Shown here in pieces: positions 796 through 58,079 of a stretch of DNA of 64,000 nucleotides (its first letter is position 1; each line of letters starts with the position of its first letter). A program made the translations under genes and the position numbers. The DNA is taken from contig CM059432.1 of the NCBI GenBank assembly GCA_030390025.1, forward strand, positions 47,370,001-47,434,000, read 5' to 3'. The stretch comes from Squalus acanthias. Lineage: Eukaryota. Under the pieces are notes generated by a model. The model made no database searches and was not told the DNA's origin. It saw nothing but the letters and a program-made list of their open reading frames with translations.

Positions 796-1793
796 AGGAT
801 GGAACACAGGTTACAGCTCAAGGCTGATGCCGGTGTTGGGTAGGTCAGAAGCCTGAAGCATGAGGTTTGAGACGTGTAGCCAGAGGCTCAAAACATCAAT
901 AGGGCAGGAGATGACAGCAGTGGGAACGGGCAGGCAGGCAGGCCAAAATCTGAAATTTCCAATGGGGTAGGTAGCAGTGGAAGTAGGCAGGTAGAGGAAA
1001 TGGGCCCAGTGAGCCAGGTCCCAAATCTGAACACGATAGCCAGTGGGAGCAGTGGAGATTGAGCAGCAGCAGAGCCTTGGGTGGGAACATTACTCCTGTT
1101 AGTTGAGTTGGAGCTACCTCTGGTGCTCAACAGAGGGATCCAGCCAGGGCTGCAGGGTGGTTTTCTGGTGATGGACAGTGGGTTGCGGAGCCACAGGGCA
1201 GTAACAGAAAACAATGTGGAAGAGGTGGCATACCACCTTACATACCACTCATCACCTCTCCATGTCCTCTCATCCGCCTTCTCCTCCACATCATCTCACC
1301 GCCATCCCACCCCTCCTCCCTGACCCTTGCCTCTCTTTCTTTCCGACATTTCTTCTCCTCTTTCCTACCCTCCCCTCCTCTGTCAGCATTTCCCCTACAC
1401 CATCTCCCTCCCCTGCTCTTTCTCCCAGGCCTTGATGTCCCCTTCTCTCCCCTCTGCCCCTTCCCCATATACTACAGTTAACCCTCCCACCAGGCCTGCT
1501 GCATCAGCCTCACCTGTTTTCCAGCACTGAGCTGGGAAAACAACAGCTTAGTTTCTAAAGCATCATTATGCTTATAATGTATTTGCTAAATATACAGCCA
1601 GCAAATACATTGTCAGCATAAAAAACTAAGCTGCTGACTCAATGCTGCAAAAATCGGCAAAGACGCAGCAGCAGTCCTGGGGACAGGAAACAGAGCTGCT
1701 GAGGCCCAAGGGAGCCATTGGGGGTGAGTGATGGAAGGTAAGCAGCAGCTGAGGCTTCAGACACAAGGCAGCAAACAGAGCAATGGTTGAGGC

Positions 1794-2072: not shown

Positions 2073-2274
2073 CTGCAAGAGAAATGTGATAGCAAATCAT
2101 AAGATGAAACACAATGGCCTAGGCTTTCTGATCATATAAATTTAAAGTAGTCACATATTACTGTACTTGGAAAAGAAGAATCTAAATGGGGTGGAGGTGC
2201 AAAGGGATCTGGGAGTACAAATACACAAATCACTAAAAGTTGCGACACAGGACAAGGCGGCCATAATAAAAGCA

Positions 2275-4360
2275 TGATGCGGAGATGCCGGTGTTGGACT
2301 GGGGTGGACAAAAATGAGAAGTCGCACAACACCAGGTTATAGTCCAACAGTTTTATTTAAAATTACGAGCTTTCGGAGCGCTGCTCCTTCTTCAGGTACA
2401 AGTACAGTGAGGGAATACAAATCGGCAGTATATATACACAGAGAACAATTTGTCTGCAGAGATACAATCTGTTAGGAAGGCATTACATCAAAGACACATC
2501 AGAGTACAGCTAAGACAATGAGGTGGGTCACGGGGTCCAACGTGTCAAATGTTGCCGTCTGCAGTTGAGCTTTTAACTTTTTTTTGGGGGGGTATTTTTG
2601 GTGGTTTTTTTTAAATGGAAAGACAGACAACGCTGTCGAGTCACGTTCTGTAGCGTGACATGAACCCAAGATCCCTATTGAGGCCGTCCTCATGGGTGCG
2701 GAACTTGGCTATCCTTTTCTGCTCGATGATTTTGCGTTGTCATGTGTCTCGAAGGCTGCCTTGGAGAACGCTAACCCGCAGATCCGAGGCTGAATGTCCT
2801 TGACTGCTGAAGTGTTCCCCGACTGGGAGGTAACAATCCTGCCTGGCGATTGTTGCGCGGTGTCCGTTCATACGTTGTCTCAGTGTCTGCATGGTCTCGC
2901 CGATGTACCATGCTCCGGGGCATCCTTTCCTGCAACGTATGAGGTAGACATCGTTGGCCGAGTCACATGAGTATGTACCATGTACCTGGTGGGTAGTGTC
3001 CTCACGTGTGATGATGGTATCTGTGTTGATGATCTGGCATGTCTTGCAGAGGTTGCCGTGGCAGGGTTGTGTGGTGTCGTGGTCGCTGTTCTCCTGACAG
3101 CTGGGTAATTTGCTGCGAACGATGGTACTTTTGAGGTTAGGCGGCTGCTTGAAGGCGAGTAGTGGAGGCGTGGGGATGGCCTTAGCAAGGTGTTCGTCGT
3201 CATCGATGACATGTTGAAGGCTGCGAAGAACATGGCGTCGTTTCTCCGCTCCGGGGAAGTACTGGACGACGTAGGGTACTCTGTTGGTTGTGTCCCGTGT
3301 TCGCCTTCTGAGGAGGTCTATGCGGTTTTTCAACGGGCCACAGCGAAAAACCGCATAGACCTCCTCAGAAGGTGAACACGGGACACAACCAACAGAGTAC
3401 CCTACGTCGTCCAGTACTTCCCCGGAGCGGAGAAACTACGCCATGTTCTTCGCAGCCTTCAACATGTCATCGATGACGACGAACACCTTGCTAAGGCCAT
3501 CCCCATGCCTCCACTACTCGCCTTCAAGCAGCCGCCTAACCTCAAAAGTACCATCGTTCGCAGCAAATTACCCAGCTGTCAGGAGAACAGTGACCACGAC
3601 ACCACAACAACCCTGCCACGGCAACCTCTGCAAAACATGCCAGATCATCAACACAGATACCATCATCACACGTGAGGACACTACCCACCAGGTACATGGT
3701 ACATACTCATGTGACTCGGCCAACGTTGCCTACGTCATACGTTGCAGGAAAGGATGCGCCGGAGCATGGTACATCGGCGAGACCATGCAGACACTGAGAC
3801 AACGTATGAACGGACACCGCGCAACAATCGCCAGGCAGGATTGTTACCTCCCAGTCGGGGAACACTTCAGCAGTCAAGGACATTCAGCCTCGGATCTGCG
3901 GGTTAGCGTTCTCCAAGGCAGCCTTCGAGACACATGACAACGCAAAATCATCGAGCAGAAAAGGATAGCCAAGTTCCGCACCCATGAGGACGGCCTCAAT
4001 AGGGATCTTGGGTTCATGTCACGCTACAGAACGTGACTCGACAGCGTTGTCTGTCTTTCCATTTAAAAAAAACCACCAAAAATACCCCCCCAAAAAAAAG
4101 TTAAAAGCTCAACTGCAGACGGCAACATTTGACACGTTGGACCCCGTGACCCACCTCATTGTCTTAGCTGTACTCTGATGTGTCTTTGATGTAATGCCTT
4201 CCTAACAGATTGTATCTCTGCAGACAAATTGCTCTCTGTGTATATATACTGCCAATTTGTATTCCCTCACTGTACTTGTACCTGAAGAAGGAGCAGCGCT
4301 CCGAAAGCTCGTAATTTTAAATAAAACTGTTAGACTATAACCTGGTGTTGTGCGACTTCT
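2275..4360. mobile_element. Penelope-like (Neptune-type) element as an inverted pair, GIY-YIG endonuclease region only
   Basis: ORFs 2740-3333(-) and 3443-3937(+) show a Cys-rich linker CHGNLCKTC and VYLIRC...WYIGET...R. Arms 2314-3331 and 3345-4363. 13-bp TSD cataataaaagca at 2262-2274 and 4361-4373. Confidence 0.93.
4278..4314 (+). ncRNA. Minimal type-I hammerhead ribozyme motif in Penelope terminal repeat (mirror copy at 2363-2399, minus strand)
   Basis: GUAC CUGAAGA A GGAGC AGC GCUCC GAAA GCU C GUAA: conserved core, 5-bp stem II, palindromic stem III AGCU, 3-bp stem I. Confidence 0.65.
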
Positions 4361-5198
4361 CATAATAAAAGCAAACCAAGCACTAGGGTTTATTTCTAGA
4401 GGGATAGAATTGATAAGTAGAGCAGTTGTGCTAAACTTGTTTCGAATCTTGGTTAGACCACATGTGGAGTACTATATGTACAGTTCTGGTCACCATATTA
4501 TAGAAAGGATACAGAGGCACTGAGGAGGGTGCAACAAAGGTTTACAAGAACTGCGAGCGTATACCTATCAGAAAAGGATGAACAACAGGCTGGGTCTCTT
4601 TTCTCTTGAAAAAGAGAAAGCTGAGGGGTGACCAAATTGAGGTCTTTAAAATTATTAAAAGTTTTGATAGAGTAGATACAGAGAGAGTGTTTCCACTTGT
4701 AGGGAAGAGCAAAACCAGAGGCTATCAATATAAGATAGTCACCAAGAAATCCAATAGGGAATTCAGAAGGAACTTATTTACCCAGAGTGTGGTGAGAATG
4801 TGGAATACGCTACCACAGGGGGTAGTTGAGGCAGATAGTATAGATGCATTTAAGGGAAAGCAAGATAAGCATATGAGGGAGAAGGGAATAGAGGGGTATG
4901 CTGATAGAGTTAGATGAGGAAGGATGGGAAGAGGCTCAAGTAGAGCATAAACACCCGCATGGACTGGTTGGGCCGAATGGCTTGTTTCTGCTGTATATTC
5001 TACCTAACTCTATACAATCCATTAAAATGATCGCTGTGATAGTAAAACCAAGGCCAATGACACTAAGTTACTGCAAAGAAAGCACAGACAGCCAATGGAG
5101 CCTTATTGACACGCATTACCTCATCAACGCTCTGCTAGGAGTGAGAAGCAAAAAACAAGCTTCAAGACAGGAATGTTGCAATATTCTTTTACAAACAC

Positions 5199-5420: not shown

Positions 5421-7435
5421 GTCGCTAACAAGGGAAATTAGGGATAGCATAAGATCCAACGAGAGGACAATTAAATTGGCCAGAAAAAGCAGCAAACCTG
5501 AGGATTGGGAGCAGTTCAGGATTCAGCAAAGGAGGACAAAGGGATTAATTAAGAGGGGGAAAATAGAGTATGAGAGTAAGCTTGCAGGGAACATAAAACT
5601 GACTGTAAAAGCTTCTATAGATATGTGAAGAGAAAAAGATTGGTGAAGTCAAGCGTAGGTCCCTTGCAGTCAGAATCAGGGAAATTTATAATGGGGAACA
5701 AAGAAATGGCTGACCAATTAAATACATACTTTGGTTCTGTCTTCACAAAGGAGGACACAAATAACCTCCCAGAGATGTCGGGGAACATAGGGTCTAATGA
5801 GAGGGAGGAACTGAATGAAATCAGTATTTGTAGGGAAATGGTGTTAGGGAAATTGACGGGATTGAAGGCCGATAAATCCCCAGGGCCCGATAAGCTACAT
5901 CCTAGGGTACTTGAGGAAGTGGCCCTAGAAATAGTAGATGCATTGCTGGTCATCTTCCAAAATTCTATAGATTGGAGGGTAGCTAATGTAACCCCACTAT
6001 TTAAAAAAGGTGGTAGAGAGAAAACAGGGAATTATAGACCGGTAAGCCTGACATCAGTAGTGGGAAAAATTCTAGAGTCCATTATAAAAGATGTAATAGC
6101 AGAGCACTTGGAAAACAGTGACAGGATCGGACAAAGTCAACATGGATTTACAAAAGGTAAATCGTGCTTGACTAATCTACTGGAATTTTTTGAGGATGTA
6201 ACTGGTAGAATAGATAAGGGAAAACCAGTGGATGTGGTGTATTTGGACTTTCAGAAGGCTTTCGATAAGGTCCCGCATAAGAGATTAGCGTGCAAAGTTA
6301 AAGCACATGGGATTGGGGGTAAGGTACTGACTTGGACAGAGAACTGACTGGCAGACAGGAAGCAAAGAGTTGGAATAAACGGGTCTTTTTCCGAGTGGCA
6401 GGCAGTGACTAGTGGGGTACCGCAGGGATCGGTGCTAGGACCCCAGCTATTCACAATATATATAATGATCTAGACGAGGGAACTAGATGTAATATCTCCA
6501 AGTTTGCAGACAACACAAAGCTGGGTGGGCGTGTGTGCTGTGAGGAGGATGCAGAGAAACTCCAGTATGATTTGGACAGGTTGGGTGATTGGGCAGATGC
6601 ATGGCAGATGCAGTATAATGTGGATAAATGCGAGGTTATCCACTTTGGTGGCAAAAACAGGAAGGCAGATTATTATCTGAACGGCAATAGATTGGGAAAA
6701 GGGGAAGTGCAACGAGACCTGGGTGTCCTTCTGCACCAGCCGCTGAAGGTAAGCATGCAGGTGCAGCAGGCGGTTAAGAAGGCAAATGGTATGTTGGCCT
6801 TCATAGCGAGAGGATTCGAGTACAGGAGCAAGGATGTCTTGCTACAGTTGTACAGGGCCTTGGTGAGACCACACCTTGAGTATTGTGTGCAGTTTTGGTC
6901 GCCTTATCTGAGGAAGGATGTCCTTGCCATGGAGGGAGTGCAGCGAAGATTCACCAGACTGATACCTGGGATGGCAGGAATGGCGTATGAGGAGAGATTG
7001 GGTCGATTGGGCTTATATTCGCTGGAGTTTAGAAGAATGAGAGGGGATCTCATTGAAACTTATAAAATTCTAACAGGACTAGACAGACTAGATGCAGGAA
7101 GGATGTTCCCCATGGCCGGGCAGTCCAGAACCAGGGGTCACAGTCTAAAGATAAGGGGTAAGCCAATTAGGTCAGAGATGAGGAGGAATTTCTTCACCCA
7201 GAGAGTGGTGAACCTGTGGAATTCTCTACCACAAAAGGCAGTTGAGGCCAATTCATTAAATATATTCAAGAAGGAGTTAGATATATTTCTTAAGGCCAAC
7301 GGGATCAAGGGATATGGGGAGAAAGCAGGGACAGGGTACTGAATTTAGATGATCAGCCATGATCTCATTAAGTGGCGGAGCACGCTCGAGGGGCCGAGTG
7401 GCCTACTCCTGCTCCTATCTTCTATGTTTCTATGT
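5421..7435 (+). mobile_element. CR1 LINE, 5'-truncated, RT region nearly intact
   Basis: ORFs 5625-6347 and 6533-7342 with [21 protein letters not shown] and RRMRGDLIE motifs; premature TGA at 6345; 3' tail ttctatgtttctatgt. Confidence 0.95.
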
Positions 7436-7494
7436 ACTTATATAGTGCCTTTAACATAGTAAAACGACCAAAGGTACCTCACAGGAGTGTTATC

Positions 7495-8450
7495 ATAGAA
7501 TCATAGCAAGTTACAGCACGGAAGGAGGCCATTTCGGCTCATCCTGTCCGTGCCGTCCAACAAAGAGCTATCCAGCCTAATCCCACTTCCCAGCTCTTGG
7601 TCCGTAGCCCTGCAGGTTAGAGCATCCCAAGTGCACATCCAAGTACTTTTTAAATGTGGTTAGGGTTCCTGCCTCTACCACCCTTTCAGGCAGTGAGTTC
7701 CAGACCCCCACAACCCTCTGGGTGAAGAAATTTCCCCTCAAATCCCCTCTAAACCTTCCACCAATTACTTTAAATCTGTGCCCCCTGGTTTTTGACCCCT
7801 CTGCTAAGGGAAATAGTTCCTCTGTATCCACTTTATCTATGCCCCTCATAATTTTATACACCTCCTAAGGTCTCCCCTCAGTCTCCTCTGTTCCAAGGAA
7901 AACAGACCCAGCCTATCCATTCTTTCCTCATAGCTAAGATTCTCTACTCCCGGCAACATCCTTGTAAATCTCCTCTGTACCCTCTCTCGTGCAATCACAT
8001 CTTTCCTGTAATGTGGTGACCGGAACTGCACGCAGTACTCTAGCTGAGGCCTAACTAGTGTTTTATACAGTTGAAGCATAATCCCCCTGCTCTTATATTC
8101 TATGCCACGGCTAATAAAGGCAAGCATTCCGTATGCCTTCTTAACCACCTTATCTACTTGCCCTGCTACCTTCAGGGATCTGTGGACATGCACGCCAAGG
8201 TCCCTTTGTTCCTCTACACTACTCCGTGTCCTACCATTTAATGTGTATTCCCTTTCCTTGTTAGCCCTCCCCAAATGCATTACCTCACACTTCTCCGGAT
8301 TGAATTCCATTTGCCACTGTTCTGCCCACCTGACCAATTTATTGATATCTTCCTGCAGTCTACAGCTTCCTTCTTCAGTATCAACCACACAGCCGATTTT
8401 AGTATCATCTGCAAACTTCTTAATCATACCCCCTATATTCAAGTCAAGAT
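7495..8450 (-). mobile_element. Young CR1 LINE 3' part, inserted into the 3' end of an L2
   Basis: KFADDTKIG RT motif and ctatgattctat tail. Near-identical to 46247-47320 and 32911-33347. L2 sequence continues on both sides. Confidence 0.95.
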
Positions 8451-10100
8451 CGAACAAAATTTGACAGAGTCTCATTAGGGCAGGTGACCAAAAGCTTGGT
8501 CAAAGAGGTAGGTTTCAAGGAGTGCCTTAAAGGGTGAGAGATAGGCAGAGAGGTTTACGGAGGGAATTCCAGAGCTTAGCTCCTCGGCAGCTGAAGGCAA
8601 GGCCTCTAATGGTGGAACGATTAAAATCAGTGATACGCAAGAGGCCAGAATTGGAGGAGCGCAGGTAACTCGGAGGGTTGTAGGGCTGGAGGAGGTTACA
8701 GAGATAGGGAGGGGCGAGGCCATGGTGGGATTTGAAAACAAGGATGAGAATTTTAAAATCGAGGCATTGCTAGAATTGGAGACAATGTAGGCTAGTGAGC
8801 ACAGGGGTGATGGGTGAACAGGACTTGGTACGAGTTAGTATATGGGCAGCAAAGTTTTGGATGAGCTCAAGTTTATGTAGGGTGGAAGAGGAGGCTGGGC
8901 CAAAGCATTGGAATAGTCAAGTCTAGAGGTAACAAAGGCATGGATGAGGGTTTCAACAGCTGATGAGCTGAGGCAGGGGCGGAGGCAGGCGATATTATGG
9001 AGGTGGAAGTAGTGATGGAGCGGTTATGTGGTTTGTAGTTCATCTCGGAGTCAAATGTGACTCCAAGGCTGGCCTGGTTCAGCCTCAGACAGTTGCCAAG
9101 GAGAGGGATGGATTTGGTGGCTAGGGAATGGCGATTGTGGCAGGGAGGAAATTTAGTTGGAGGAAATTTCTGCTTATCCAGTACTGGAGGTCAGGAAAGC
9201 AGTATGACAAATCAGAGACAGTGGAGTGGTCGAGAGAGGTGGTGATGAGGTAGAGCTGGGTGTTGTCAATGTAAATGGGGAACCTGACATCGTGTTTTTG
9301 GATGATGTCGCCGAGGTGCAGTATGTAGATGAGAAATAGGAGGGGGCCAAGCATGGATCCTTGAGGGACTCGAGGGGTAATGGTGTGAGTGTGGGAGCAG
9401 GAGGGGAAGCCATTGCAGGAGATTCTCTGGCTGTAACTGGATAGATAAGAATGGAACCAGGCGAGGGCAGTCCCACACAGCTGGACGACAGAGAGTGGCA
9501 TAGGAAGAGGATGGTGTGGTGAATCGTGTCAAAGGCTGCAGACAGGTCGAGAAGAATGAAGAGAGAGAGTTTACCATGGTCACAGTCACACAGGATATCA
9601 TTTGTGACTTTAATAAGGGCCGTTTCAGTACTGTGGCAGGGTGGAAACCTGATTGGAGGGATTCAAACATGGAGTAGTGGGAAGGATAGACATGAATTTG
9701 GGAGGTGACAACATGTTCAAGGACTTGAGAGGAAAGTGAGGTGGGAGATGGGGCAGTAGTTTGCAAGGATTGGGGGGGGTTTGAGGAGAGTGGTGGTGAT
9801 GGCAGATTTGAATGGGAGGGGGATAGTGGATAGTACAGAATAGAGGGAACCGTTAACAATATCAGCTAACATGGGGCCCAGGAAGGGAAGTTTGGTGATC
9901 AGCAGTTTGGTGGGAATAGGGTCAAGGGAGCAGCAGGTGGGTCTCATGGACAAGGTGAGCTCAAAGAGGACATGAGGGGAGATAGGAGAGAAACTAGAGA
10001 AAGATGCAAGTTCAGGGCTAGGGCAGTGAGGAACCTTGGGGGAAGTTTGACCCCGGTAGACTCGGGGAAGGGAGGGAAGTGGCAGAGGCAGCTGAATGGA
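8451..10100 (-). mobile_element. L2-type LINE remnant (tail at 7436-7494)
   Basis: Frameshifted RT motifs [12 protein letters not shown] and LDPIPTKLL; 3' end homologous to 24782-25529. Confidence 0.85.
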
Positions 10101-24082: not shown

Positions 24083-24766
24083 GGCCCAGATATTCTAATC
24101 CCTACGGGTGGGTACACGCTGTAGGGACATCGGAAATGCCGGTTTCAGGCATGCACTGAAAACCGGCATTTCTGATCTGTCAAGAATGGTCTTGACAGAT
24201 CCTCCGGCTGCCCTGGAGAAGGGCCTCTGCGGGCGGATAGTTCCGCTTTCTGGAGACCCTCCGCCAACAGAAAACCCTTACAATTCTTACGCTTGGTAAA
24301 AGCAGGCGTAAGGCCTGCTTTTACCTGGATAAGCGTTGAAAAAAAGTTTTTTTTTTTAAATTCTCACTGATTTATCATTTAAAAATACTTTTAAAAAAGT
24401 AAGTTTATTTTTAGCCCTGTAAAAAATTAAATTTGTTTAAAATACTTAATTTATTGTAATTTCAAGTCATTTTAAAAATGTGATTTTAAAAAAAATGTAT
24501 TTAAAGTTTTACTGTGTTTTTGGGGTGATCTCCATTCATATATTTGACAGGTCTTCCTGTGATTCCCTTCTGTGATTGGCTCCCCATGGCCCACGTGATC
24601 CCAGGGACGCTGCGAGCTACATGCGCCCCGGGATACGTGGGCCCTGCACACTTCAAGTTTGGAGAGGCCCAGGAGCGGAAGCGTGTGCGTCCCGGGAACC
24701 CTCAGGTAAGGGCGTAGATTTTTCCAGATCGCAGGCCTCCGCCCGCGGGATCGGAAAATACGGGCC
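24083..24766 (+). mobile_element. Harbinger-type MITE, second subfamily, abutting the previous one
   Basis: TIR ggcccagatatt / aaaatacgggcc, TSD CAT; related to 51360-52053. Confidence 0.8.
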
Positions 24767-24781
24767 CATGTTGTAGACATC

Positions 24782-25529
24782 TGTCTGAGGCTGAACCACA
24801 CTGTTCACAACCTTGGTGTTATATTTGACACTGAAATGAGCTTCCGACCACATATCTGCAGCATAACTAAGACCGCCTATTTCCACCTCTGTAACACTGC
24901 CCGTCTCTGCCCTTGCCTCAGCTCATCCACTGCTGAAATCCTCATCCATGCCTTTGTTACCTCTAGACTTGACTATTCCAATGCACTCCTGGCTGGCCTC
25001 CCACATTCCACCCTACATAAACTTGAGGTCATCCAAAACTCGGCTGCCCGTGTCCTAACCCACACCAAGTCCCGTTCGCCCATCACCCCTGTGCTCACTG
25101 ACCTACATTGGCTCCCGGTTAAACAGCGCCTCAATTTCAAAATTCTCATCCTTGTTTTCAAATCCCTCCATGGCCTCGCCCCTTCCTATCTCTGTAATCT
25201 CCTTCAGCCCCACAACCCCCAGAGATATCTGCGCTCCTCTAATTCTGCCCTCTTGAGCATCCCTGATTATAATCGCTCAACCTTTGGCGGTCGTGCCTTC
25301 TGTTGCCTAGGCCCCAAACTCTGGAATTCCCTGCCTAAACCTCTCCCCCTCTCTTTCCTCCTTTAAGACGCTCCTTAAAACCTACCTCTTTGACCAAGCT
25401 TTTGGTCGTCTGCCCTAATTTATCCTTATGTGGGTCGGTGTCAAACTTGTTGTCTTAAAATACTCCTGTGCAGCGCCTTGGGACGTTTTACTACGTTAAA
25501 GGTGCTATATAAATACAAGTTGTTGTTGT
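24782..25529 (+). mobile_element. L2-type LINE 3' end
   Basis: ORF 24836-25366: LIHAFVTSRLDYSNALLAG...QNSAAR...LHWLPV; tail aaatacaagttgttgttg. Confidence 0.92.
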
Positions 25530-45777: not shown

Positions 45778-47530
45778 GGGCTGGATTTTTTCCAACCTCA
45801 GTGGGTCCGGGGCGGGCGATGTCCGTGGCGTGTGGGGACCCCGCATCTGTCTTGATCCCGGCCTCCAACAAGATTTTCTATTGATGGGGCTGGTTAAGCC
45901 TGCCCTGCGAGGTTCCTGGCCAATTAATAGGAAGCGGGTCTGTTGACGTCATTTGATGTTGCGTCGTCAGCTGGTTTTCTTAAAGGGACCATGTCCACAA
46001 TCATTTTGACAGTTGTGCTGTCACTTCTGCAGCATTGAGGTGCATGGCTGCACCCAGGCTCTCCCATGACCCCCTCCATATGCTTATGGAGGGAGTCACA
46101 GCACGCAGGGAGGTTCTCTTCCCTTCCAATGGGTGGAAGAGACCTCCCCAGGAGACCAATGCAGCCTGGTTGTACGTTACACAGGAGGGCACAAGCAGGG
46201 ATGTCGTCAGGAGGACCAGGCTGCAGTGGTGCAAACCTTTCAATGATCAAGTTGGATTCAAAACTGGCTCGGAGACAGGAAGCAGAGGGTAATGGTTGAT
46301 GGGTGTTTTTGTGACTGGAAGGCTCAGTACTAGGTCCCTTGCTTTTTGTGGTATATATCAACGATCTAGACTTGAATATAGGGGGTATGATTAAGAAGTT
46401 TGCAGATGATAGTAGAATCGGCTGTGTGGTTGATACTGAAGAAGGAAGCTGTAGACTGCAGGAAGATATCAATAAATTGGTCAGGTGGGCAGAACAGTGG
46501 CAAATGGAATTCAATCCTGAGAAGTGTGAGGTAATGCATTTGGGGAGGGTTAACAAGGAAAGGGAATACACATTAAATGGTAGGACACTGAGTAGTGTAG
46601 AGGAACAAAGGGACCTTGGAGTGCATGTCCACAGATCCCTGAAGGTAGCAGAGCAAGTAGATAAGGTGGTTAAGAAGGCATACGGAATGCTTGCCTTTAT
46701 TAGCCGTGGCATAGAATATAAGAGCAGGGGGGTTATACTTCAACTGTATAAAACACTAGTTAGGCCTCAGCTAGAGTACTGCGTGCAGTTCTGGTCACCA
46801 CATTACAGGAAAGATGTGATTGCACTAGAGAGGGTACAGAGGAGATTTACAAGGATGTTGCCGGGAGTAGAGAATCTTAGCTATGAGGAAAGACTGGATA
46901 GGCTGGGTCTGTTTTCCTTGGAACAGAGGAGGCTGAGGGGAGACCTTATTGAGGTGTATAAAATTATGAGGGGCACAGATAAAGTGGATACAGAGGAACT
47001 ATTTCCCTTAGCAGAGGGGTCAAAAACCAGGGGGCACAGATTTAAAGTAATTGGGGGAAGGTTTAGAGGGGATTTGAGGGGAAATTTCTTCACCCAGAGG
47101 GTTGTGGGGGTCTGGAACTCACTGCCTGAAAGGGTGGTAGAGACAGGAACCCTAACCACATTTAAAAAGTACTTGGATGTGCACTTGGGATGCTCTAACC
47201 TGCAGGGCTACGGACCAAGAGCTGGGAAGTGGGATTAGGCTGAATAGCTCTTTGTTGGCCAGTGTGGACACGGTGGGCTGAAATGGCCTCCTTCCGTGCT
47301 GTAACTTTCTATGATTCTATCTCATTAGATCACGAAATGTTACTCCAAAGCCACGCTCAGCCTCATCCTGCTGTGCCACTCATCACCTCCCTATCACTCT
47401 GCCTTCCCTACCCTACTCCTGCACATCCTTACTCACACCAACTCACCTTACACCTCCACCCATCCCTCTCTATCTACATTATCACTTCCCCATCTCACTA
47501 GCCACCCCTCACACTCACCCTCATCTTTCC
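45778..47530 (+). mobile_element. PIF/Harbinger remnant with Myb/SANT-like ORF, split by a CR1
   Basis: TIR-like gggctggatttt; AAPRLSHDPLHMLMEGVTARREVLFP...AW....VVRRTRLQWCKPFND resumes as LIRSR at 47321. Confidence 0.75.
46247..47320 (+). mobile_element. Young CR1 LINE 3' part with an open 299-aa RT C-terminal frame
   Basis: [23 protein letters not shown]; tail ttctatgattctat. Confidence 0.95.
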
Positions 47531-56953: not shown

Positions 56954-57190
56954 TCCAAGTACCAGCAAAACACAAGTAGATAATTAATTGGCTTCAAAAT
57001 TCTACTTTTTTTTGTGGGGGGGGGGGGGGGAGAAATTGAACCAATATTAGGATGAATTCTATCACTGTTTCCCTGTCTCTTTCTTTCCTCCTAGCTAAAT
57101 GCACTCTGAAATTTATACAGGTGTGTAGTTAGAGCACTGTCATTTTTTCCCCCTCATTCTTCAGACACTCACTCTCTTCTTAAAAAGAGA

Positions 57191-57360
57191 GAAGTCGCAC
57201 AACACCAGGTTATAGTCCAACGGCTTTATTTGACTTCACCTGACGAAGGAGCAGCGCTCCGAAAGCTTGTGATTTCAAATAAAGCTGTTGGACTATAACC
57301 TGGTGTTGTGCGACTTCTCTCTTTTGTCCACCCCAGTCCAACACCGGCATCTCCGCATCA
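57191..57360 (+). mobile_element. 170-bp hairpin Penelope-derived mini-element (same family as 2275-4360)
   Basis: 14-bp TSD ttcttaaaaagaga (57177-57190, 57361-57374); inverted arms; same terminal tail as 2275-2313. Confidence 0.9.
57236..57272 (+). ncRNA. Minimal type-I hammerhead ribozyme motif
   Basis: UCAC CUGACGA A GGAGC AGC GCUCC GAAA GCU U GUGA: 4-bp stem I, 5-bp stem II, palindromic stem III. Confidence 0.7.
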
Positions 57361-58079
57361 TTCTTAAAAAGAGACATTATAAATTTTACCTCAGCAAATC
57401 ATTTGAATTTTGACCTTTGTTATTCAAAATTATTTGATCACTACTGAGTAAAAGTGCTAGAAGCTAAAGAAAAATTCTCATCAGTACAGCTGACTGAAAG
57501 GTACTGATGCATCCCGAGAAATGAGGCACACTGCTCATGCTCAGATTGCACAAACCAAATTCAGCCGAGAGTCACAGCTCTGGGCAATAATATCAAGTCT
57601 AAGCCGAGGCTTTTGGGAGAAGTTGGGACCTTTAACTAAAAGTTTTAATGGAGGCATAAAAAAGGCACAAATGATCATGTTATTGTGAAATGCATACATT
57701 TTTTAAAATAACTTTTTGTTTAAACCCTTATTTTAGCCATTAGAAATTAAACTTTAGCTATAAAAAAAATCTGAAAACATTTTGAACAATTTGACTGTTG
57801 TTTCATCTTCCTCTCCTAAACATAATGCCGCCCTCACTGAGGTGCGTCAACAGATGCAGTGGTTTCTCTTGAGCATCTTGTCCAAATTATTATTTCTGCG
57901 ACAGTAAACACCGGATTATTCTACCATAGAGGAGTCACAGCCAAGCTCGTGTCCTTTATTTATCAGCTGTCCAGTGCACTTCCAGCACAGGTCGCTCAGG
58001 CCGCTGTGGCTAACTGTAACCTCAGCTAAATTTAGAACACACCAAGGGTCAAACTGAAGACTTCTTGGTTGATATGGCT

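What the first reader, a model, noticed from the sequence alone, without database searches (positions are those of the whole stretch)
57177..57374. 170-bp Penelope-derived hairpin element whose loop is a hammerhead ribozyme
Seen: arms 57183-57233 and 57275-57325 pair over about 51 nt with one G.U. The roughly 40-nt loop is almost exactly a minimal type-I hammerhead (57236-57272), followed by a 35-nt tail and bounded by a 14-bp TSD. Relative to the copy at 4278-4314, stem I shows a compensatory change (UCAC/GUGA versus GUAC/GUAA). Established: Penelope-like elements carry minimal hammerheads with palindromic stem III that are thought to act as dimers. Inference: this is either the smallest inverted-type Penelope insertion product or a non-coding ribozyme-bearing mobile unit (retrozyme-like).
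Basis: partly seen in the sequence, partly recalled or inferred. Interest (0 to 1): 0.72.

Follow-up and report, generated by a model that had tools for sequence, protein, structure and literature searches.

The report
Cap-stopped, double-primed Penelope hairpin insertion
This 170-base hairpin is a real but non-coding stub of a very abundant Penelope-type jumping gene, likely made once on landing when both cut DNA strands copied the start of the element's messenger RNA, so it is not a self-spreading ribozyme, though such stubs likely record how this poorly understood class inserts.

Summary
The anatomy is confirmed: 14-bp TSD, arms matching at 50 of 51, a minimal hammerhead, a 35-nt tail. It is not a mobile unit of its own. 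It belongs to a Penelope-like family with 68,197 exact arm matches and intact 892-aa RT/GIY-YIG parents. The right arm is the parent's 5' UTR, from the TATA/Initiator +1 to the ATG. The exact junction recurs at 20 independent sites, but in mirror forms (tail right 9, left 10) and in several subfamilies. Other junctions are commoner (711, 103). Arm ends pile up at +1, where a non-parental G outnumbers A 3983:592, the known mark of copying up to an mRNA cap. 153 of 163 hairpins have one tailed arm, none two. Best reading: both strands of a staggered cut prime on the RNA at two sites, one cDNA runs off the cap, and the two join by microhomology. The ribozyme lies in the loop because it starts 7 nt after +1. 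A small excess of ends at the predicted cut site hints at cleavage in vivo. The scan has noted such hairpins, and once the extra G, on other DNA.

The parts
57177..57190 (+). Left target-site duplication (14 bp). Its last 8 nt match the element's antisense at 7 of 8, a likely primer-template pairing at the inner priming site.
   Evidence: family TSDs are 12-13 bp in 110 of 163
57191..57233 (-). Inverted, tail-less arm: a short cDNA likely primed from the top-strand 3' end at the inner site.
   Evidence: tail-less arms end in one cluster about 38 nt before the tailed arms
57231..57233 (.). Junction microhomology TGA. The TG is not in the parent's sense strand, whose upstream base is C or T.
57233..57360 (+). 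Sense arm: the parent's 5' UTR from the Initiator A (+1, predicted start) to the A of the ORF ATG.
   Evidence: 123 of 128 identical to the same span of ORF-linked copy L343; +1 to ATG is 127-133 nt in 19 of 30 ORF-linked loci, with no core detected in the other 11
57236..57272 (+). Minimal type I hammerhead motif with palindromic AGCU in place of stem III; predicted cut after 57268 (CUU).
   Evidence: features as in PMC4209133; cleavage untested
57326..57360 (+). 35-nt PLE tail, between the two priming sites, ending at the start codon.
57361..57374 (+). Right target-site duplication.
2262..4373 (.). Comparison element: a 2.1-kb inverted insertion of a sister subfamily with a 13-bp TSD (2262-2274, 4361-4373), tail on the left arm only, hammerheads at 2371-2395 (-) and 4282-4306 (+), and GIY-YIG fragments.

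Best explanation
This is a non-coding, promoter-less stub of an abundant Neptune-type Penelope-like retrotransposon, likely made once at insertion by double target-primed reverse transcription of the 5' end of the element's capped mRNA. Shown in the sequence: the sense arm equals the parent's 5' UTR; the inverted arm lacks the tail; there is a TSD; arm ends pile up at the Initiator with a non-parental G. Inferred steps: (1) the pLTR TATA/Initiator starts a capped RNA 7 nt before the hammerhead core; (2) the GIY-YIG domain makes a staggered cut of about 12-14 nt; (3) both 3' ends prime inside the RNA, one at the start codon (tailed arm) and one about 38 nt upstream (tail-less arm); (4) when the 5' pLTR copy is used, RT reaches the cap after about 127 nt and adds C opposite the cap, then A residues; (5) that cDNA end anneals to TGA in the other cDNA, the flap is removed and the gaps are filled. 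The ribozyme sits in the loop because it begins just after the RNA start. It was not cut in the template of the sense arm, and as a lone monomer without a promoter it would most likely be inert.
For: Family size: 68,197 exact arm matches. Intact 892-aa ORFs in 3138-bp tandems with RVT_1, a CX4CxxC linker and GIY-YIG motifs. TATATA lies 30-34 nt before the A of YACTT in 25 of 26 clean read-through arms. Sample not selected on junction type, 98 arms: 32 of the 84 that reach +8 end between -10 and +8 (0.031 and 0.018 per nt, against 0.002-0.006 upstream); +1 is the commonest single end (7, 5 of them with G before). Before ACTTCACCTGANGAAGG, G occurs 3983 times and A 592 times, both non-parental; 1-nt microhomology alone predicts about 10:9. 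In 10 of the first 30 G-class loci the G/TG/TTTG is explained by neither partner arm nor target (read by eye). At the ribozyme cut site the preceding base is A 12, G 3 among the 15 ends without the partner's GTGA (read), so the G is specific to +1. An extra G marks capped full-length L1 insertions (PMC11702581, passages). 153 of 163 hairpins have one tailed and one tail-less arm, 0 have two tails, 10 have none. Two internal RT start sites bounding the tail, cleavage of both strands, and uncut RNA as the main substrate were shown in vitro for an anole PLE (PMC11167929). Junctions at different TGA/TCAC microhomologies number 711, 103 and 31.
Against: No direct RNA evidence for the start or the cap: only assembled contigs were available and showed no start. 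In 20 of 30 G-class loci the G could also come from the partner arm or target. Ends are spread over about 18 nt around +1, not sharp. 0 of 19 ORF-linked 5' pLTRs begin with the extra G. The hairpin set was gathered by targeted queries, not at random. The in vitro paper found no homology between primer and RT start, whereas genomic overlaps here average 1.6-1.8 nt.
Confidence: 0.72

Rival explanations
1. The hairpin is a non-autonomous mobile unit (retrozyme- or MITE-like) copied from a hairpin master.
For: The exact junction occurs 31 times, at 20 independent sites, most with their own TSD. Non-autonomous PLE-derived retrozymes exist (bioRxiv 10.64898/2026.07.22.740005; PMC7229834).
Against: Of the 20, the tail is on the ribozyme arm in 9, on the inverted arm in 10, and on neither in 1. 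8 different core variants occur among the 18 rows scored. The inverted arm starts at a different base at each site. 12 of the 31 matches are one insertion inside a duplicated block of 1-3 kb. No tandem array and no promoter. Other junctions are 3 and 23 times commoner.
Confidence: 0.04
2. Double priming is right, but the 5' boundary comes from RT stalling at the ribozyme's stem I or II structure, not from a capped RNA end.
For: Ends are spread from -10 to +8, with a raised rate inside the core (0.009 per nt at +9 to +20). Many junctions use microhomology.
Against: A cDNA primed downstream would stall on the 3' side of stem I, where 0 of 98 arms end (+33 to +40). Stalling does not predict G over A at 6.7:1 exactly at the Initiator.
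Confidence: 0.1
3. Short hairpins are longer palindromic insertions that later collapsed by microhomology-mediated deletion in DNA.
For: Long inverted insertions are common (30 inverted pairs among the first 100 arms, 11 with spacers under 100 bp; read). Junctions lie at microhomologies. Such deletions are reported in Adineta PLEs (PMC3846280).
Against: A deletion cannot create the non-parental G/TG. Non-inverted copies joined directly to the target also start at G-ACTTCAC (L086, L063, L067).
Confidence: 0.07
4. The inverted arm arises by self-priming (fold-back) on an antisense template, as proposed for Adineta PLEs.
For: This is the published proposal for palindromes at the inverted junction (PMC3846280, passages). 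Arms agree at a subfamily site in 75 of 86 hairpins.
Against: 11 of 86 disagree, more than a single fold-back would give. Both outer ends stop at the two known RT start positions and abut the TSD. The extra G is on the sense 5' end.
Confidence: 0.07

Closest known systems
EN+ Penelope-like element insertions with an inverted 5'-truncated pLTR and a 30-40-bp tail (Adineta Pen2a_Av, PMC3846280; general scheme PMC8557442 Fig. 2)
   Same: Inverted pLTR, one-sided tail, long TSD, TATA plus TCACT Initiator-like motif in the pLTR, hammerhead in the pLTR.
   Different: No ORF or internal sequence at all. The sense arm is exactly the 5' UTR, with a cap-like extra G. Those papers ascribe the tail to endonuclease resolution and the inversion to antisense self-priming.
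Poseidon of Anolis carolinensis in vitro (PMC11167929)
   Same: Two internal RT start sites bounding the tail, cuts on both strands, uncut RNA as template.
   Different: The parent here has the CX2-5CxxC linker (Neptune/Nematis type) and its ATG lies about 90 nt after the cut site, not inside stem II. The sections read (parts 1-2 of 4) give no account of inverted products or cap run-off.
L1 twin priming and the extra G of full-length L1 insertions (PMC11702581)
   Same: Second strand primes on the RNA, inverted 5' part, discrete TSD, microhomology at the inversion junction, G from the cap.
   Different: L1's two cDNAs cover mostly adjacent parts of the RNA and start at poly(A). Here both copy the same stretch from two fixed internal sites, giving a palindrome.
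Metazoan non-LTR retrozymes (PMC7229834; bioRxiv 10.64898/2026.07.22.740005)
   Same: Non-coding, type I hammerhead, PLE pLTR ancestry, long TSDs.
   Different: Retrozymes are head-to-tail tandems of 150-450 bp, mostly with canonical ribozymes, expressed as circles. This is a single head-to-head stub with a minimal ribozyme.

Membership tests
EN+ Penelope-like element insertion | Parent ORF with RT and C-terminal GIY-YIG | tested here: met
   892-aa ORF, RVT_1 E 2.7e-8, VYLIRC...WYIGET motif read by eye. Pfam gave no GIY-YIG hit. The stub itself is non-coding.
EN+ Penelope-like element insertion | Inverted 5'-truncated pLTR copy | tested here: met
EN+ Penelope-like element insertion | 30-40-bp tail on one end only | tested here: met
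   35 nt here; 153 of 163 one-sided, 0 two-sided
EN+ Penelope-like element insertion | Target-site duplication | tested here: met
   14 bp; family mode 12-13
Neptune clade (parent) | CX2-5CxxC linker between RT and EN | tested here: met
   CHGKLCKTC in the L396 ORF; definition from PMC8557442. Nematis shares the motif.
Neptune clade (parent) | RT phylogeny | not tested
   no tree built
Minimal type I hammerhead of PLEs | Conserved core, extra base between 9 and 10.1, G10.1-C11.1, palindromic 15.2-16.2 | tested here: met
   CUGA, GA and GAAAGC columns invariant in 18 variants; criteria from PMC4209133
Minimal type I hammerhead of PLEs | Covariation in stems I and II | tested here: inconclusive
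   98.1% of cells paired; 1 double change, and one-sided G.U changes at 4 pairs; 159 of 500 shuffles as high
Minimal type I hammerhead of PLEs | Self-cleavage as a dimer | not testable with these tools
   indirect only: small peak of arm ends at the predicted cut
Non-LTR retrozyme | Head-to-tail tandem units with at least two hammerheads | tested here: not met
   single motif; the next same-strand motif in the window is 53 kb away; none of the 20 junction-sharing insertions showed a tandem hairpin in the stretch displayed
Non-LTR retrozyme | Copies descend from a shared unit | tested here: not met
   mirror forms and mixed subfamilies
Non-LTR retrozyme | Expressed as linear and circular monomer RNA | not testable with these tools
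   only contigs available
MITE (DNA transposon derivative) | Terminal inverted repeats flush with both ends and a short fixed TSD (definition recalled) | tested here: not met
   35-nt unpaired tail on one side; TSD 9-16 bp and variable

The most novel reading that the evidence does not exclude
These stubs are a genome-wide record of the whole Penelope insertion cycle. A dimeric RNP primes both strands of one staggered cut at the two tail-bounding sites, sometimes on two different RNAs. cDNAs end either at the mRNA cap (extra G, thousands of cases) or, in about 1% of arms, at the uncapped hammerhead cut (no G). That would explain PLE inverted repeats and tails, and would be evidence that the minimal PLE hammerhead cleaves in living cells.
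Probability: 0.4. Interest if true: 0.7.

Novelty: new variant of a known kind. Interest (0 to 1): 0.42.

Why it matters
How Penelope-like elements make their inverted repeats and one-sided tails is an open question (PMC8557442, PMC11167929), and the published proposal is antisense self-priming (PMC3846280). The counts here point to double priming on sense RNA and locate the RNA start from DNA alone. Both can be tested with the existing in vitro system. For annotation, such stubs can be mistaken for MITEs, microRNA hairpins (weak MIR396 match) or retrozymes. The single element is an ordinary by-product; the value lies in the family statistics.

Tried and rejected
(1) My first idea, that ATTTGA upstream of the core is parental and extends stem I, was wrong: read-through arms have TTC/TTT there. 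(2) A splice acceptor as the cause of the +1 boundary (a D. virilis intron ends at helix I, PMC4209133) was rejected: there is no AG before +1 in the parents. (3) An upstream tandem hammerhead cut as the source of the 5' end: no such arrangement was seen in the loci displayed; no dedicated genome search was run. (4) Rfam found no hammerhead. (5) Public runs were contigs only; 4 of 24 were laid and showed no start or end sites. (6) One search used a reference panel contaminated with palindromic junctions and was replaced. (7) The automatic junction parser miscalled loci whose arms differ, so the 10 of 30 count is by eye. (8) Pfam did not recognise the GIY-YIG part. (9) Literature: Penelope + 'twin priming' gave 3 papers, none on PLE mechanism by title or abstract start. 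The 'extra G'/cap search gave 4, none on PLEs by title or abstract start. The shark/Neptune/inverted search gave 5, none describing such stubs by title or abstract start. Searches supplied the PLE papers. Subscription papers, Repbase/Dfam entries and supplements were not seen and may describe these stubs.

Full report
Observation. The sequence is as described: TSD 57177-57190 / 57361-57374, arms matching at 50 of 51, a minimal hammerhead at 57236-57272 and a 35-nt tail. The fold is far beyond chance (z -15.2). The outer 8 bp of the left arm belong to the TSD. The claimed compensatory change is one real double change next to a broken pair, and covariation over 18 variants is inconclusive (98.1% of cells paired, 159 of 500 shuffles as high). 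The comparison copy at 4278 is an arm of a 2.1-kb inverted insertion with GIY-YIG fragments.

The family. The genome (3.7 Gb; a cartilaginous fish by my recall of these repeats, not checked) holds 68,197 exact matches to a 25-nt arm anchor and 533 places where the tail runs on into an ORF start. L396 has 3138-bp tandems with intact 892-aa ORFs: RVT_1, a CX4CxxC linker and a GIY-YIG motif, which is the Neptune/Nematis layout (PMC8557442). The window's sense arm, 57233-57360, matches the span from the Initiator A to the ATG of ORF-linked copy L343 at 123 of 128 positions. Read-through arms have TATATA 30-34 nt upstream of that A in 25 of 26 clean cases. A TATA plus TCACT motif in pLTRs was already noted in Adineta (PMC3846280).

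Is it a mobile unit? The exact junction occurs 31 times. Twelve are one insertion inside a duplicated block, leaving 20 independent sites. Read, the tail is on the ribozyme arm in 9, on the inverted arm in 10, and absent in 1. Eight core variants occur among the 18 rows the script scored (it missed 3 sites and counted one duplicate). One hairpin master cannot give mirror images from several subfamilies. Other junctions are commoner: 103 where the inverted arm ends at the predicted cut and joins by TCAC, and 711 at CAGGTGA. Recurrence therefore reflects hotspots, not descent.

Why the ribozyme is in the loop. I took every exact-anchor arm with enough flank in the loci covering the first 100 matches (98 arms). 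Of the 84 that reach +8, 32 end between -10 and +8. The rate is 0.031 per nt at +1 to +8 and 0.018 at -10 to -1, against 0.002-0.006 further upstream. +1 is the commonest single end, with G before it in 5 of 7. Genome-wide, G precedes ACTTCACCTGANGAAGG 3983 times and A 592 times, while parents have C or T (19,432 non-G matches for the CTGACGA form). One-base microhomology would give about equal G and A. In the listing, tallied by eye, G precedes 15 of 33 ends at +1 but only 4 of 26 at +2 (p 0.024). In 10 of the first 30 G-class loci the G, TG or TTTG is in neither the partner arm nor the target; in the other 20 it could be either. An extra G is the known trace of copying a capped RNA to its end in L1 (PMC11702581). 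So the template likely began at +1, 7 nt before the core. Any cDNA that ran to the end leaves the ribozyme next to the fold point. Against this reading: there is no direct RNA evidence, the ends are spread, and 0 of 19 ORF-linked pLTRs start with the G.

Why a hairpin with one tail. Among 163 short inverted pairs with a TSD of 9 bp or more (all fetched loci; not a random set), 153 have one tailed and one tail-less arm, 10 have neither and none has two. The two arm ends cluster about 38 nt apart, the outer cluster at the ATG. TSDs are 12-13 bp in 110. This fits the in vitro anole PLE, which cuts both strands and starts RT at two internal sites bounding the tail, using mainly uncut RNA (PMC11167929). 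I infer that each strand of one staggered cut primes at one site and that the two cDNAs join by microhomology, as in L1 twin priming but over the same RNA stretch. In this copy the top-strand end matches the inner site at 7 of 8 bases. The cap-ended cDNA (ending T-C-A) would pair with TGA at 57231-57233. Arms agree at a subfamily site in 75 of 86 cases and differ in 11, so one RNA is usual and two are possible.

Does the ribozyme cut? Most arms pass the predicted cut intact: 0 of 98 end at +33 to +40. A search enriched for ends near the cut gave 1187 matches. In 96 of the first 100 (near-identical tandem copies merged, one not recovered), 23 start at the first base after the cut and 15 one base before, against a mean of 8.3 at seven other positions. 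Eight of the 23 are explained by GTGA microhomology with the partner, leaving 15 (p 0.02). One of those 15 is an insertion in a read-through arm and two are the arms of one insertion. The preceding base among the 15 is A 12, G 3, with no cap-like G. This is a hint that about 1% of templates were cleaved, not proof. The window copy itself has lost the TATA box, has no same-strand partner motif within 53 kb and lacks stem III. Single minimal PLE hammerheads were inactive in vitro (PMC4209133).

Comparison and verdict. The anatomy is the known inverted-pLTR-plus-tail insertion of EN+ PLEs, reduced to the 5' UTR. It fails the retrozyme and MITE tests. I found no paper giving double priming or cap run-off for PLEs, within a library that lacks most subscription journals. 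Papers seen: PMC11167929 parts 1-2 of 4; PMC4209133 parts 1-2 of 4; bioRxiv 2026.07.22.740005 part 1 of 5 plus passages; PMC8557442, PMC3846280, PMC11702581 and PMC7229834 passages only; no supplements. The scan's index lists 550 notes with these words in at least 41 genomes, several with the double-priming reading and one with the extra G. I consulted them after forming my reading, and they are not evidence. Verdict: a real feature and a new variant of a known kind, interest 0.42. The single element is a by-product, but the family counts make an open mechanistic question testable.

Noticed in passing
window 2262-4373: 2.1-kb inverted insertion of a sister subfamily; its centre (about 3305-3370) is itself a short palindrome, which gave a spurious mir-255 match.
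   Followed up: partly
window 57319 (right arm, CTCTCTTTT): The family has A where this copy has T (T in 7 of 309 matches, 3 of them this locus fetched three times). The T makes the arm pair perfectly with the left TSD, possibly through arm-to-arm correction from target sequence.
   Followed up: partly
L007, L008, L010-L012, L016-L023 (G000 C20, C3, C8, C3788): One hairpin insertion is carried inside a block duplicated at least 13 times at 98-99.5% identity over 1-3 kb; the block was not identified.
   Followed up: partly
L094, L105, L110, L114, L123, L154: Junctions contain short direct repeats of the RNA 5' end (CACCTGA-CTTCACCTGA, repeated CTTCAC), as if the cDNA end re-annealed to the template and extended again, reminiscent of telomerase-like translocation.
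   Followed up: no
hairpins: The two arms differ at a subfamily-diagnostic site in 11 of 86 cases, which suggests that some insertions use two different RNAs.
   Followed up: partly
L396 (G000 C2:211.21 Mb), L397, L398: Head-to-tail tandems of period about 3138 bp, with two identical intact 892-aa ORFs in L396: the family is young and probably still active.
   Followed up: partly
L271 (G000 C2:31.49 Mb): Palindrome in which both arms end exactly at the predicted ribozyme cut, with 2 inserted bases between them.
   Followed up: partly
window 5580-8499, 24710-25366, 45924-47238: LINE RT fragments (CR1- and L2-like by recall); many flanks of the fetched hairpins also look CR1-like by eye.
   Followed up: no
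window 1540-1637: Unrelated AT-rich hairpin of about 98 bp with weak miRNA-family matches, possibly a MITE.
   Followed up: no
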